A stretch of DNA of 64,000 nucleotides, from NCBI RefSeq assembly GCF_009914755.1, contig NC_060939.1; one strand, 5' to 3'. Positions within the stretch are counted from its first letter, which is position 1. Each line of letters starts with the position of its first letter. Source of the DNA: the human T2T-CHM13v2.0 reference genome, Homo sapiens. Of this stretch, positions 42,754-49,988 are shown in pieces. Below the pieces are notes generated by a model that worked only from the letters and a program-made list of their open reading frames with translations, was not told where the DNA came from and did no database searches. The position numbers and the translations under genes were made by a program.

Positions 42754-44149
42754 TTTTTTTTGTTTGGTTGTATGTTTTTATTTTTTATTATACTTTAAGT
42801 TTTAGGGTACATGTGCACAACTTGCAGGTTTGTTACATGTGTATACATGTGCCATGTTGGTGTGTTCCACCCATTAACTCATCATTTAACATTAGGCATA
42901 TCTCCTAATGCTATCCCTCCCCCCTCCCCCCACCCCACAACAGGCCCCAGTGTGTGATGTTCCCCTTCCTGTGTCCATGTGTTCTCATTGTTCAGTTCCC
43001 ACCTATGAGTGAGAACATGCGGTGTTTGGTTTTTTTGTCCTTTCGGTAGTTTGCTGAGAATGATGGTTTCCAGCTTCATCCATGTCCCTGCAAGGGACAT
43101 GAACTCATCATTTTTTATGGCTGCATAGTATTCCATGGTGTATATGTGCCACATTTTCTTAATCCAGTTTATCATTGTTGGACATTTGGGTTAGTTCCAA
43201 GTCTTTGCTACTGTGAATAGTGCCGCAATAAACATATGTGTGCATGTGTCTTTATAGCAGCATGATTTATAATCCTTTGGGTACATACCCAGCAATGGGA
43301 TGGCTGGGTCAAATGGTATTTCTAGTTCTAGATCCCTGAGGAATCGCCACACTGACTTCCACAATGGTTGAACTAGTTTACAGTCCCACCAACAGTGTAA
43401 AAGTGTTCCTATTTCTCCACATCCTCTCTAGCACTTGTTGTTTCCTGACTTTTTAATGATCACCATTCTAACTGGTGTGAGATGGTATCTCATTGCGGTT
43501 TTGATTTGCATTTCTCTGATGGCCAGTGATGATGAGCATTTTTTCATGTGTCTTTTGGCTGCATAAATGTCTTCTTTTGAGAAGTGTCTGTTCATGTCCT
43601 TCACCCACTTTTTGATGGGGTTGTTTTTTTCTTGTAAATTTGTTTGAGTTCATTATAGATTCTGGGTATTAGCCCTTTGTCAGATGAGTAGATTGCAAAA
43701 ATTTTTCTCATTCTGTATGTTGCCTGTTCACTCTGATGGTAGTTTCTTTTGCTGTGCAGAAGCTCTTTAGTTTAATTAGATCCCATTTGTCAATTTTGGC
43801 TTTTGTTGCCATTGCTTTTGGTGTTTTAGACATGCAGCCCTTGCCCATGCCTATGTCCTGAATGGTATTGCCTAGGTTTTCTTCTAGGGTTTTTATGGTT
43901 TTAGGTCTAACATATAAGTCTTTAATCCATCTTGAATTAATTTTTGTATAAGGTGTAAGGAAGGGGTCCAGTTTCAGCTTTCTACATATGGCTAGCCAGT
44001 TTTCCCAGCACCATTTATTAAATCGGGAATCCTTTCCTCATTTCTTGTTTTTGTCAGGTTTGTCAAAGATCAGATGGTTATAGATGTGTGGTATTATTTC
44101 TGAGGGCTCTGTTCTGTTCCATTGGTCTATATCTCTGTTTTGGTACCAG
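42754..44149 (-). mobile_element. 5'-truncated L1 (L1PA4/5-like), ~1.4 kb, abutting the PAK2 retrocopy
   Basis: Poly(T) plus reverse 3'UTR at the left end; ORF2 peptides WIKKMWHIYTMEYY and [12 protein letters not shown]; ends at tggtaccag with no TSD. Confidence 0.97.
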
Positions 44150-44240
44150 GCGCCTCCGCAACCTCCCAGGAGCTCTGACCAAGGCGCCTCACTGGGGTGG
44201 GGAACTTGCCTCACCTGGGGCCATTTCATAATTCTGAATC

Positions 44241-44990
44241 ATGTGTGATAACGGAGAACTGGAAGACAAGCCTCCAGCACCTCCCGTGCGAATGAGCAGG
44301 ACCATCTTTAGCACTGGAGGCAAAGACCCTTTGTCAGCCAATCACAGTTTGAAACCTTTGCCTTCTGTTCCAGAGGAGAAAAAGCCCAGGCATAAAATCA
44401 TCTCCATATTCTCAGGCACAGAGAAAGGAAGTAAAAAGAAAGAAAAGGAACGGCCAGAAATTTCTCCTCCATCTGATTTTGAACACACCATCCATGTTGG
44501 CTTTGATGCTGTTACTGGAGAATTCACTGGCATGCCAGAACACTGGGGTCGATTACTACAGACCTCAAATATCACCAAACTAGAGCAAAAGAAGAATCCT
44601 CAGGCTGTGCTGGATGTCTACGACTCCAACACAGTGAAGCAGAAGTATCTGAGTTTTACTCCTCCTGAGAAAGATGGCTTCCCTTCTGGAACACCAGCAC
44701 TGAATGCCGAGGGAACAGAAGCACCTGCAGTAGTGACAGAGGAGGAGGACGATGATGAAGAGACTGCCCCTCCCGTTATTGCCCCACCACCGGATCATAT
44801 GAAATCAATTTACACACGGTCTGTAATTGACCCTGTTCCTGCACCAGTTGGTGATTCAAATGTTGATGGTGGTGCCAAGTCTTTAGACAAACAGAAAAAG
44901 AAGACTAAGATGACAGATGAAGAGATTATGGAGAAACTAAGAACTATAGTGAGCATAGGTGACCCTAAGAAAAAAATATACAAGATATGA
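44241..44990 (+). pseudogene. PAK2: Open 249-aa N-terminal half of the PAK2 retrocopy (SH3 ligand, CRIB/PBD, partial autoinhibitory domain)
   Basis: Native ATG position; [17 protein letters not shown] intact; 3-aa deletion (LKF); ends 4 codons after the frameshift. Confidence 0.9.
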
Positions 44991-48277: not shown

Positions 48278-48594
48278 TTTTTATTTTTTATTTTTATTTT
48301 TTTTTTTTTTTGATACAGAGTCTCACTCTGTCACTTAGGCTGGAGCGCAGTGGCATGATCTCAGCTCACTGCAACCTCCGCTTCCTGGGTTCAAGCAATT
48401 CTCATGCCTCAGCCTCCTGAGTAGCTGAGACCACAGGTGTGTGCCACCACACCCAGCTAATTTTTTGTATTTTTAGTAGAGACAGAGTCTCACCATGTTG
48501 CCCAGGCTTGTCTCCAACTCCTGAGCTCAGGCAATCTGCCCACCTTGGCCTCCCAAAGTGCTACAATTACAGGCACGAGCCACTACACCTGGCC
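48278..48594 (-). mobile_element. Alu within the PAK2-derived 3'UTR
   Basis: Reverse dimer; TSD tcatgtttttt. Confidence 0.95.
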
Positions 48595-49988
48595 TCATGT
48601 TTTTTAAATAATTGCCTTTTATATTTACCCTTTTTGTCATCACTTTAGAATGAAAATTCCCATTTAAATCTAAAAGTTACTTTAATAGTCCTCTTGTGTT
48701 ATTAGGACAGTGTTACTATAGTACTTATTTATTATATTTTAGACTTTTTCTTTTTTCTTCTGCTGCTTTTAGGGACAGTTAAAACTGGGAAACTATGAAA
48801 CATGGAACATTTTATCCTACCTAGAATAGTAAATGAGTAATTGTGAAGCGTAAGACACCGAGGCTAATACAACTCTGTCTTCATGTGTCGAGTGCCTGGC
48901 ACATAGTACTAATTCTCTTCCCTTTAACATATAAATGTTAAGCTGCTTAGAGTCTAGTAACCACCAACTGTAAATGAGCCTGTGCCTTTAACAAGAAATT
49001 TTAAACTACCTATGAGTATTTCTTTATAGGGCTCACTTAAATACGTTTGTATATACTGTATTCTAGCCAGAATAATTTTAGATCTGATCAGGTAGTAGCT
49101 AAAATTAGAAAAAAACAAAATAGATGCTTAAAGAATTTGCATCCATTTTTGAGTCTAAATCTTTTTAAATATACTGAGATCCACATCTAGTGAAATGTCA
49201 GTGTCAAAATATTATAGATTATAGCTAAAATCCAGATTAATACTCATTTGGGGTTTTTTATAGTGGAACTTCATAGTAATACAAGAAGCAGATTGTCTTC
49301 CTGTCTCTGCTGCTCCCACAGTAGGTATTGAAACTGGTGAAATCAGTTTTTTGATAGTGTGTGTATATAAGAAAAAATATATACACACATTCTTTTTTCT
49401 CAGTCAACACACTGATTGAACACTCTGGCAAAGATGCTGTGGTAGACGAGGTTGGAGTTAGAAAGAAGAAGCAAGCACTGGCCTGGCCTTGAAAGAACGG
49501 AAGTCTTTCCCATTCACTTCTCTAGAATGCTGCCAAGACAGAGGCAGAAAGAAATGGATGATAATTCTGTCAAGCACACTTCTATTCTTTATTAAGAGAA
49601 GCAATTATGTTTGGAATTCAGCATCTTTGGTTGGAACGCATTGGCTTTTTTTTCTTGTTGTGATAGAAATGGAATTAAGTAAAATTATAGTTTGTCTTTT
49701 CTGTTGTCTTCAAATTTTATAATGTCTTTTATTTTTAATTTAATCCCATTCAATTATTTAATTGTTATACATTGACATTAACTGCTGTATTTTATGACTT
49801 TGTTCAATAATTTTGTTCTTTCAGGGCTAGAAATAAACTTTTTTAAGAAATGTGCATTTTTCCCTTTCCTAAACTTTTATTCTTTCTTTTGATCAGAATA
49901 GCATAAAAGAATAGTTAAATGTCTTAATAGGTTTTCAAAGAACATTCTAGTATCTTTAGTGATAAATGTTTTAAACCTTTAAAAAAAA

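What the first reader, a model, noticed from the sequence alone, without database searches (positions are those of the whole stretch)
42754..49988. Head-to-head L1PA / PAK2-mRNA composite: two retro-sequences joined 5'-to-5', poly(A)s outward, no TSDs
Seen: a minus-strand L1PA (poly-T at 42754) stops at tggtaccag (44149) and runs without spacer into the PAK2 5'UTR, and PAK2 ends in A8 at 49988. The L1 3' flank (ttccagcattc) is not repeated at its 5' end. The PAK2 3' flank (tagaatagtatagc) is not repeated at its 5' end. The right flank starts in the middle of an L1M whose upstream part is not visible left of 42754. Known: ordinary TPRT leaves TSDs, twin priming inverts one RNA, and template-switch chimeras (U6/L1) are co-oriented. 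Inference: either two RNAs were reverse-transcribed from opposite-strand nicks and their cDNA ends joined, or the PAK2 cDNA invaded a pre-existing L1. Both would bridge a deletion or rearrangement, possibly a duplicon junction. The ccag at 44146-44149 may be the microhomology.
Basis: partly seen in the sequence, partly recalled or inferred. Interest (0 to 1): 0.8.

Follow-up and report, generated by a model that had tools for sequence, protein, structure and literature searches.

The report
L1–PAK2 retrocopy bridge at duplicon edge
A truncated L1 and a nearly full-length PAK2 retrocopy are joined 5' end to 5' end, with no target-site duplications, exactly where chr15-only DNA meets a piece copied from chromosome 2, which looks like an old germline example of a junction type so far described in tumours.

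Summary
An antisense L1 3' piece (42754-44149) abuts a PAK2 processed pseudogene (44150-49988) with no spacer. Both A-tails point outward, and no TSD exists in any pairing.

- **Junction:** the overlap is 1 nt, not "ccag".
- **Right flank:** from 49990 on it is a ~26-kb copy of chr2:165.43-165.456 Mb. Homology starts one base after the PAK2 tail. Intact chr2 reads TTCT/GA on the primed strand there.
- **Left flank:** at least 8 kb exist only on chr15.
- **Ages:** L1, retrocopy and duplicon cannot be told apart, at about 1.6-2.4% non-CpG change per lineage.

Best reading (0.5): two target-primed reverse transcriptions, at two separate breaks, had their cDNA ends ligated. Such two-poly(A) junctions are described in tumours and L1-induced cells.

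Main rival (0.22): the PAK2 cDNA was joined into an L1 already present, with a deletion.

One oddity is unexplained. The L1's truncation point lies 14 nt from the homologous position where the old chr2-derived L1 is broken. Ape genomes would decide between the readings.

The parts
34800..42753 (.). Left flank: DNA found only on chr15. It ends ...gcttttccagcattc, directly before the L1 poly-T.
   Evidence: Three own-genome searches (34800-38830, 39620-42300, 42300-42753) found only the window itself, its twin at chr15:18.64 Mb, and old interspersed repeats. No homology to the 40 kb of chr2 examined.
42754..44149 (-). 5'-truncated primate L1 (L1PA-type) 3' piece, about 1.39 kb. Its A-rich tail is 42754 to about 42786: T8, 13 nt, then a T/A run as read on the + strand.
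   Evidence: 94-95% identical over full length to many genomic L1 copies. Minus-strand frames read as L1 ORF2 C-terminal peptides, a label from my recall; Pfam gave no hit for 4 of 4 pieces. End of homology at 44149 confirmed with 3 of 3 longer copies.
44149..44150 (.). 5'-to-5' junction of L1 and PAK2. No filler, 1 nt of ambiguous origin (g at 44149).
   Evidence: Alignment to PAK2 exon 1 and to L1 copies.
44150..49988 (+). PAK2 processed pseudogene. It holds 71 nt of exon 1, then exon 2 to the last exon without introns.
- ATG at 44241.
- 9-nt deletion near 44617.
- One extra A in an A-run near 44976, which shifts the frame.
- Natural stop at 45805-45807.
- Full 3'UTR, including the Alu at 48298-48594 that the parent also has.
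- A8 tail at 49981-49988.
   Evidence: Pfam PBD (E 7.5e-24) and Pkinase (E 6.3e-68) in the two open frames.
49989..49989 (.). Single t between the A8 and the start of chr2 homology. It is either a mutated tail base or untemplated.
   Evidence: chr15 reads ...aaaaaaaat|agaatag; chr2 reads ...gaagctgtc|agaatag.
49990..64000 (+). Copy of chr2:165456373 down to 165441303 (chr2 minus strand), which continues beyond the window. It begins inside an old, sense-oriented L1 fragment.
   Evidence: Colinear BLAST blocks at 93-95% identity. Substitutions only: 580 of 13,578 sites, 4.27%. It runs on to chr15:19976193.
50196..50490 (-). Alu inserted in the chr15 copy after the duplication, with an ordinary TSD of about 9-10 bp. 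Not part of the composite; it serves as a local contrast.
   Evidence: Absent from chr2. The chr2 blocks on either side overlap by 9 bp.

Best explanation
The composite is a junction between two 'primary RT ends'.

**Proposed steps**
1. L1 ORF2p nicked two separate DNA sites.
2. At the left site, in chr15-only DNA, the nicked + strand primed reverse transcription of an L1 RNA from its poly(A).
3. At the right site, inside an old L1 in chr2q24-derived DNA, the nicked - strand (5'-TTCT/GA-3') primed reverse transcription of a PAK2 mRNA from its poly(A).
4. Neither cDNA was resolved against its own reciprocal end. The two cDNA 3' ends were joined to each other by end joining, blunt or with 1 nt of overlap.

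The product is poly-T-L1(antisense) | PAK2(sense)-poly-A, with no TSDs and with flanks that were not neighbours. The reciprocal ends were lost.

**Shown:** the anatomy, the missing TSDs, the different origin of the two flanks, the EN-type site on the right, and the indistinguishable ages.

**Inferred:** that the two reverse transcriptions were concurrent. Also inferred is whether the event only deleted DNA next to a chr2 copy already present, or itself attached the chr2 fragment to chr15.
For: 1. Both outer ends are poly(A) junctions and both inner ends are cDNA-type 5' ends. The L1 is truncated at 1.39 kb. PAK2 ends inside its GC-rich first exon after 5.8 kb.
2. The PAK2 tail is untemplated. 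It meets chr2-derived DNA at a point that reads TTCT/GA (YYYY/RR) on the primed strand in the intact chr2 site.
3. No TSD exists in any of the three pairings.
4. The flanks come from different places. The right flank is a 26-kb chr2 copy starting 1 nt after the tail. The left 8 kb or more are chr15-only.
5. A single-site origin is excluded, because the upstream half of the old L1 is nowhere in the window or elsewhere in the genome.
6. The per-lineage non-CpG ages overlap.
   - L1: 2.13% private changes (28 of 1315); 2.38% star branch, bootstrap 1.67-3.12.
   - PAK2: at most 2.52% from the coding part (39 of 1545), and 3.09% total in the last exon plus 3'UTR, so about 1.5-2.1% for the copy.
   - Duplicon: 3.58% total, split about evenly, 23 derived changes on chr15 against 30 on chr2, so about 1.6-1.8%.
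7. The same architecture is documented. [quoted passage not shown] In L1-induced cells and tumours, primary RT ends of two loci were joined, and in 2 of 8 two-insertion translocations both insertions lay in one junction (passages). Processed pseudogenes also serve as bridges.
Against: - One genome cannot show synchrony. The dating resolution is about +-25%, and the L1 point estimate (2.1-2.4%) is slightly above that of the duplicon (1.6-1.8%), as a somewhat older resident L1 would be.
- The three-taxon count on 728 3'UTR sites gave only 8 changes private to the copy against 15 private to the parent. The copy's branch is therefore poorly fixed, at 1.1-2.5%.
- The left target site cannot be checked, because no empty site exists.
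- No reciprocal junction survives.
- In the tumour data, single-insertion deletions (66 of 152 rearrangement junctions) are far more common than two-tail bridges.
- The 14-nt register coincidence between the L1 end and the break in the old L1 is not predicted by this model in its simple form.
Confidence: 0.5

Rival explanations
1. The L1 was already present. An ordinary, TSD-flanked antisense L1 already lay in chr15-only DNA, near a chr2-derived duplicon that had landed earlier. PAK2 mRNA was then reverse transcribed from a nick in the duplicon's old L1. Its cDNA 5' end was resolved against a distant upstream break that happened to lie inside that L1. This deleted the L1 5' part, the duplicon's original edge and the upstream half of the old L1. 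This is a retrotransposition-associated target deletion.
For: - It explains the missing TSDs, the EN-type right site and the natural-looking PAK2 5' end.
- Insertion-associated deletions are the commonest retrotransposon-mediated rearrangement, 66 of 152 junctions, and include the 5'-end attachment to an upstream break described in the PCAWG paper (passages).
- The L1 age estimate is, if anything, slightly higher than that of the duplicon.
Against: - The far breakpoint must fall by chance inside an L1 of nearly the same age as PAK2. It must also leave the L1's 3' end and tail pointing outward.
- PAK2 must have inserted very soon after the duplication, since the total divergences are 3.9% against 4.3%.
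- No intermediate is seen, though only one other copy exists, a recent twin.
Confidence: 0.22
2. L1-mediated deletion into an existing retrocopy. PAK2 first inserted normally, with TSDs, into the chr2-derived copy. Later an L1 started TPRT at the left site, and its cDNA end was joined to a break in the PAK2 5'UTR. The DNA between them was deleted.
For: - L1 insertion-associated deletions are well documented.
- The L1's 1.39-kb truncation is typical.
- The missing TSDs are explained.
Against: - The distal break must land within the first few hundred nt of a 5.8-kb retrocopy. The copy still keeps 71 nt of exon 1.
- The L1 is not younger than PAK2 on any estimate.
Confidence: 0.08
3. Plain later deletion or other end-joining rearrangement. 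This would have occurred between two independently inserted, TSD-flanked elements, with no retrotransposition intermediate involved. The breakpoints happened to fall in the L1 body and the PAK2 5'UTR.
For: - The pericentromeric chr15 mosaic is heavily rearranged. The far end of the same duplicon carries inverted partial duplications and abuts other duplicons.
- A 0-1 nt junction fits end joining.
Against: - It needs four events: a duplication, two insertions and a deletion.
- It needs a breakpoint in the extreme 5' end of PAK2.
- It does not explain why chr2 homology begins exactly at the PAK2 tail, unless PAK2 inserted there first.
- It does not explain the similar ages.
Confidence: 0.1

Closest known systems
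Retrotransposon-mediated rearrangement bridges made of two independent insertions (Zumalave et al., bioRxiv 10.1101/2024.08.27.596794; Mendez-Dorantes et al., bioRxiv 10.1101/2024.12.14.628481)
   Same: - Two reverse-transcribed pieces in opposite orientation, joined at their 5' breakpoints.
- A poly(A)/poly(T) tail and an EN-type site at each outer end.
- Flanks from distant loci and a 0-6 nt junction.
- Processed pseudogenes can take part.
   Different: - Those cases are somatic, from tumours and L1-induced cultured cells. They were validated by the reciprocal junction and shared 'heteroduplications'.
- This one is germline and fixed, at about 4% divergence.
- It pairs an L1 with a near full-length mRNA copy and lies at the edge of a segmental duplication.
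- It has no surviving reciprocal product.
- Neither paper mentions segmental duplications or primates in its main text (0 occurrences for Zumalave; 'segmental duplication' 0 for Mendez-Dorantes).
Chimeric L1 insertions with antisense RNAs, ascribed to twin priming with two RNAs (Cell Genomics 2026, PMC13174262)
   Same: These are germline, evolutionary insertions in which an L1 piece and another RNA copy lie in opposite orientation. They are explained by two reverse transcriptions from the two ends of a break (passages).
   Different: - Those sit in one target site, with 7-17 bp TSDs where reported.
- The antisense mRNA pieces lack first exons.
- Here there is no TSD, the flanks are from two chromosomes, and the mRNA copy is near full length with its own tail.
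- PAK2 and LOC646214 are not in the main text or in the 4 supplementary files held.
L1 / retrocopy insertion-associated genomic deletion (PCAWG L1 paper PMC7058536, passages read; the earlier cell-culture and primate-comparison work is recalled, not seen)
   Same: One TPRT end with a tail and an EN site, no TSD, and loss of target DNA. The cDNA 5' end is attached to a distant break with little or no microhomology.
   Different: A single insertion bridges the deletion. Here a second polyadenylated element of the same age forms the other side.
Classical twin priming (5' inversion of one L1; Ostertag and Kazazian 2001, seen only in a reference list) and template-switch chimeras such as U6/L1
   Same: Two cDNA pieces are joined inside one insertion.
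   Different: - Twin priming uses one RNA, with internal priming, one tail and TSDs.
- Template-switch chimeras are co-oriented, with one tail and TSDs.
- None of these features holds here.

Membership tests
Processed pseudogene (L1-mediated retrocopy) | Exons joined without introns; multi-exon parent gene elsewhere | tested here: met
   Exon 1 part plus 14 further exon blocks are contiguous in the window. They are spread over chr3:199459464-199558334 in the parent.
Processed pseudogene (L1-mediated retrocopy) | Untemplated poly(A) at the mRNA 3' end | tested here: met
   The parent reads ...aaaccttt|taatgg and the copy reads ...aaaccttt|aaaaaaaa.
Processed pseudogene (L1-mediated retrocopy) | Target-site duplication flanking the copy | tested here: not met
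   The longest shared word is 4 nt, reached in 463 of 500 shuffles. The flank 15-mer is unique in the window.
Processed pseudogene (L1-mediated retrocopy) | L1 endonuclease-type target at the poly(A) junction | tested here: met
   The intact chr2 site reads 5'-TTCT/GA-3' on the primed strand. This is a degenerate YYYY/RR form of the consensus. Motifs such as TTCT/A are accepted.
5'-truncated L1 insertion by TPRT | L1 3' end with A-rich tail | tested here: met
5'-truncated L1 insertion by TPRT | Target-site duplication | tested here: not met
5'-truncated L1 insertion by TPRT | EN-type target at the tail junction | tested here: inconclusive
   The flank ends ...cattc before T8, and some of the T's may be target-derived. 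No empty site exists in the genome.
Single-site twin priming (one or two RNAs) | Both flanks are the two sides of one target site, with a TSD | tested here: not met
   The left flank has no chr2 homology. The upstream half of the old L1 is absent from the window and from the rest of the genome.
Template-switch chimera (U6/L1 type) | Co-oriented parts, one poly(A), TSDs | tested here: not met
   The parts are in opposite orientation, with two tails and no TSD.
Two-insertion retrotransposon bridge (junction of two primary RT ends) | Two outward poly(A)/poly(T) tails, pieces inverted and joined at their 5' breakpoints | tested here: met
Two-insertion retrotransposon bridge (junction of two primary RT ends) | Flanks not adjacent in the unrearranged genome | tested here: met
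   The right flank is chr2:165.456 Mb. The left flank is chr15-only.
Two-insertion retrotransposon bridge (junction of two primary RT ends) | Short duplications shared with the reciprocal breakpoints (heteroduplication) | not testable with these tools
   No reciprocal junction is present. The chr2 sequence just beyond the break has no second copy.
Two-insertion retrotransposon bridge (junction of two primary RT ends) | The two insertions are concurrent | tested here: inconclusive
   The ages overlap, but only within about +-25%.
Insertion-associated target deletion | Flanks colinear in an ancestral locus, with a segment missing | not testable with these tools
   This would need an outgroup or an older paralogue. 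The only other copy is a 99-100% identical twin.

The most novel reading that the evidence does not exclude
The L1-PAK2 bridge is not a later scar. It is the joint that attached the 26-kb chr2q24 fragment to pericentromeric chr15. L1 ORF2p broke two chromosomes in a germline cell of an early hominoid, roughly 17-21 Myr ago on a recalled rate of about 1.05-1.3e-9 per site per year. The two nascent cDNAs, one from L1 RNA and one from PAK2 mRNA, were ligated. The unstable product was then trimmed, which would fit the fold-back-like inverted pieces at the far end of the fragment.

On this reading, the 14-nt register match between the L1 truncation point and the staggered break in the old L1 is a footprint. 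The break's reciprocal overhang would have paired with the L1 cDNA before the final join.

This would make L1 activity a direct agent of interchromosomal duplicative transposition.
Probability: 0.3. Interest if true: 0.8.

Novelty: new member of a known kind. Interest (0 to 1): 0.55.

Why it matters
How segments are copied between chromosomes into pericentromeric mosaics is still poorly understood. Junction studies mostly point to Alu repeats and end joining; that statement is from recall. Work on tumours and L1-induced cells from 2024-2026 shows that two concurrent retrotransposition reactions can stitch unrelated chromosome ends together.

A fixed germline junction with the same anatomy, sitting exactly at the edge of a chr2-to-chr15 duplicon, would be the first candidate evidence that this process also shaped primate chromosomes. 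It can be tested directly with complete ape genomes.

If instead the L1 was already present, the locus is an ordinary retrocopy-associated deletion. It would then be of local interest only.

Tried and rejected
- **Single-site twin priming with two RNAs:** rejected. The left flank is not the upstream half of the old L1, and that half exists nowhere else.
- **Template switch onto an RNA carrying an antisense L1, or a chimeric PAK2 transcript:** rejected.
  - The junction lies inside exon 1, not at a splice site.
  - The parent has a CpG island upstream of that point, not an L1.
  - The left 8 kb are ordinary chr15-only genomic DNA with Alus.
  - No second copy of the right-flank 15-mer lies to the left.
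- **Whole-block insertion into one chr15 site:** I tested whether [L1-PAK2-chr2 fragment] was inserted as one block. The DNA after the far end of the chr2 fragment is a 2.7-kb multi-copy repeat followed by another duplicon. It is not a continuation of the left locus.
- **Faster chr15 lineage:** I looked for a faster-evolving chr15 lineage that could bias the dating. Polarised changes were 23 on chr15 and 30 on chr2, with 13 ambiguous, 2 where both differ and 43 without outgroup left out.
- **Pfam on the L1 reading-frame pieces:** 0 families for 4 of 4 pieces.
- **DNA-level alignment of the young L1 against the old L1:** meaningless. Only weak protein-level alignments (BLOSUM62 scores 33 and 31) give the register.
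- **Literature on this locus:** 45 papers hold at least one of the three terms LOC646214, 'PAK2 pseudogene' or PAK2P. None of the 12 listed is, by title and abstract start, about this junction. Of these, 6 hold LOC646214 and 6 hold only PAK2P. None of their texts was read.
- **Literature on junction type:** two searches combining segmental duplication with retrotransposition terms gave no paper describing such a junction, judged by titles and abstract starts. PMC9132208 concerns SVA DNA recombination, not cDNA bridges (abstract read).
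Full report
**What is there**

On the + strand the window reads as follows:
- a unique flank ending ...gcttttccagcattc;
- T8 (42754-42761), then 13 nt and a T-rich run;
- the reverse complement of an L1 3' end up to ...tggtaccag (44149);
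- directly after it, gcgcctccgc..., which continues into a PAK2 cDNA copy ending ...aaaccttt + A8 (49981-49988);
- one t, then agaatagtatagc....

The L1 piece is 94-95% identical over its whole 1388 nt to many genomic L1 copies. The search gave 13,109 first-look candidates, of which 40 were scored. In 3 of 3 longer copies that I fetched, L1 continues upstream of CTGG with bases that differ from the window. L1 homology therefore stops exactly at 44149.

Positions 44149/44150-44220 align to PAK2 exon 1 at chr3:199459464-199459535. There are 12 mismatches in 71, and 7 of them are parental CpGs lost in the copy. Only the g at 44149 can be assigned to either partner.

**The retrocopy**

Exon 2 through the last exon follow without introns. 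The copy holds the whole 3'UTR, including an Alu that the parent also carries. It ends at a point after which the parent reads taatgg..., so the A8 is a true tail remnant.

The reading frame is nearly intact. There is a 9-nt deletion near 44617 and one extra A in an A-run near 44976. The second change splits the frame into a 250-codon N-terminal part (Pfam PBD, E 7.5e-24) and a 282-codon part (Pkinase, E 6.3e-68) that runs to the natural stop.

**No target-site duplications**

I tested three pairings: L1 tail flank against L1 5' side, PAK2 5' side against PAK2 tail flank, and outer flank against outer flank. The longest shared direct words are 4, 4 and 5 nt. These lengths were reached in 487, 463 and 388 of 500 shuffles.

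Neither flank 15-mer occurs a second time in the 64 kb at 2 mismatches or fewer, apart from one hit at 11062 with 2 mismatches. The Alu at 50196-50490, inserted right beside the composite, does have a normal TSD.

**The flanks come from different places**

*Right flank.* It matches chr2:165456373 downward, colinearly, to the end of the window and beyond. It runs as far as chr15:19976193 and then continues through two inverted pieces to 19978176, about 26 kb in all. The homology begins at 49990, one base after the tail.

On chr2 there is neither a PAK2 copy nor the young L1, and an old L1 fragment runs uninterrupted through the point. Chr2 therefore keeps the unbroken state. The primed strand there reads 5'-TTCT/GA-3', a degenerate L1 endonuclease site.

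The chr2 sequence just beyond the break has no other copy in the genome. It does not occur in the window either.

*Left flank.* For at least 8 kb it has no homologue other than a 99-100% identical inverted twin of the whole region at chr15:18.6 Mb. That twin carries the same composite, so it gives no extra information.

**Ages**

All figures count substitutions only.

*PAK2 copy against its parent*
- Last exon plus 3'UTR: 159 of 4042 sites (3.93%); non-CpG 122 of 3949 (3.09%).
- Exon 2 to the stop: 57 of 1609; non-CpG 39 of 1545 (2.52%). Most of this should be on the copy, because the parent is constrained.
- Three-taxon count using an older PAK2 3'UTR fragment on chr2:178.49 Mb: 8 changes private to the copy, 15 private to the parent and 46 private to the older fragment, in 728 sites. 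The split of the 3'UTR divergence is therefore uncertain.

*chr15 copy against chr2*
- 580 of 13,578 sites (4.27%); non-CpG 476 of 13,296 (3.58%).
- I polarised the differences inside four shared Alus, using 23 other Alus of the window as outgroup. This gave 23 derived changes on chr15 and 30 on chr2. Left out were 13 ambiguous sites, 2 where both differ and 43 without outgroup. The two lineages are about equal.

*L1 against its 12 closest fetched relatives* (12 of the 40 scored)
- Star-decomposition branch: 2.80% for all sites (bootstrap 2.03-3.61) and 2.38% non-CpG (1.67-3.12).
- Private changes: 28 of 1315 non-CpG sites (2.13%).

Per lineage and non-CpG, the estimates are L1 about 2.1-2.4%, PAK2 copy about 1.5-2.1% (range 1.1-2.5%), and chr15 duplicon copy about 1.6-1.8%. 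They cannot be told apart. If anything, the L1 is slightly older. On a recalled hominoid rate of about 1.05-1.3e-9 per site per year, the 4.4% K2P divergence means roughly 17-21 Myr.

**Interpretation**

A single break cannot have produced this structure, because the two outer junctions lie in unrelated DNA. Each outer junction looks like the start of a target-primed reverse transcription. Each inner end looks like the place where a cDNA stopped.

The simplest single-event reading is that two primary RT ends, one carrying an L1 cDNA and one a PAK2 cDNA, were joined to each other.

This architecture is now documented:
- Zumalave et al. describe a bridge of two 5'-truncated L1s in inverted orientation, joined at their 5' breakpoints, each with its own tail. 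They also describe bridges with two tails and two EN motifs, processed-pseudogene bridges, and one rearrangement per about 40 insertions (sections 8 and 9 read; discussion passage).
- Mendez-Dorantes et al. show, in L1-induced cells, primary RT ends of two chromosomes joined with 0-6 nt of homology. In tumours, both insertions lay in one junction in 2 of 8 two-insertion translocations (passages).
- A comparative-genomics catalogue ascribes antisense RNA/L1 chimeras in the germline to two reverse transcriptions from the two ends of a break. Those sit in one target site with TSDs, and PAK2 is not listed there (passages and 4 supplementary files).

**The sequential alternatives remain open**

The strongest is that the L1 was already resident and the PAK2 cDNA was resolved into it, with a deletion. 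In its favour, deletions are the commonest retrotransposon-mediated rearrangement (66 of 152). Against it, the far break must hit an L1 of matching age with its tail pointing outward, and PAK2 must have inserted soon after the duplication.

An L1-mediated deletion into an existing PAK2 copy, or a plain later deletion, needs a breakpoint within the extreme 5' end of the retrocopy. The first of these also needs an L1 younger than PAK2, which no estimate supports.

My odds are:

| Reading | Odds |
|---|---|
| Two-RT-end junction | 0.50 |
| Pre-existing L1 | 0.22 |
| Plain later deletion | 0.10 |
| L1-mediated deletion | 0.08 |
| Something else | remainder |

Of the 0.50, about 0.30 goes to the version in which the junction itself attached the chr2 fragment.

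**An unexplained detail**

The old chr2-derived L1 is sense-oriented and the young L1 is antisense. In homologous ORF2 coordinates, the young L1's first base (CTGGTACC..., 44149) corresponds to window 50004 (CTGGCACA). That is 14 nt downstream of the break in the old L1 at 49990, or 14-19 nt if indels in the old copy are allowed for. The protein-level alignments that give this register are weak (scores 33 and 31). Fourteen nt is a normal stagger for L1 target cuts.

The chance of two breakpoints in a 6-kb element falling this close is about 0.6% if uniform, and perhaps 1.5% given the 3' bias of truncations. One possibility is a transient pairing of the break's sense overhang with the nascent antisense L1 cDNA, followed by trimming. 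That would argue for concurrence, but it is speculation.

**Verdict**

The mechanism is narrowed to a small set but not resolved. The kind of junction is already known from somatic systems. Its appearance as an old, fixed germline structure at a segmental-duplication edge has not, as far as my searches show, been described.

bioRxiv supplements were closed, so the supplementary tables of the two preprints could not be checked for L1/mRNA two-tail junctions.

Noticed in passing
window 44149 versus 49990-50004: The antisense young L1 is truncated at the ORF2 position homologous to a point 14 nt inside the sense-oriented old L1 that starts at 49990. Fourteen nt is a TSD-like distance. The chance of this is roughly 0.6-1.5%. 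It is unexplained.
   Followed up: partly
whole window; twin at chr15:18.60-18.65 Mb (outside the window): The region, composite included, has a 99-100% identical inverted copy about 1.3 Mb away on chr15. This points to a very recent large inverted duplication.
   Followed up: no
L061 (chr15:19975900-19981400, about 10-15 kb beyond the window end): The far end of the chr2-derived fragment is complex.
- It is colinear up to chr2:165431248.
- Then come 42 unaligned bp.
- Then two inverted pieces follow (chr2:165431119 to 165431341, and 165430169 to 165431904), a fold-back-like partial triplication.
- After that come a 2.7-kb multi-copy pericentromeric repeat and a chr2:132.17 Mb/chr13-like duplicon.
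   Followed up: partly
window 50196-50490: A minus-strand Alu is present only in the chr15 copy. It has a normal TSD of about 9-10 bp, so it is an ordinary insertion made after the duplication.
   Followed up: partly
window about 53980-53984; chr2:165451265-165452646: 1.38 kb present on chr2 are missing from the chr15 copy. This is either an insertion on chr2 or a deletion on chr15.
   Followed up: no
L038/L039 (chr2:178489353-178490098): A second, older PAK2 3'UTR retro-fragment lies here in two adjacent pieces of opposite orientation, 90-92% identical to the window copy. It looks like a twin-priming-type insertion. There is also a 79% match at chr2:78092013-78092777.
   Followed up: partly
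window 44238-44987 and 44959-45804: The retrocopy keeps an open 250-codon frame with the p21-Rho-binding domain, and an otherwise open kinase-domain frame. The two are separated only by one extra A. The hub's annotation lists the locus as a transcribed pseudogene driven from an exon at 14231-14484.
   Followed up: partly
window 42358-42457 and about 41460-41760: The left flank contains old interspersed repeats, 78-93% and 68-82% identical to many loci. The last 296 bp before the L1 tail are single-copy.
   Followed up: no
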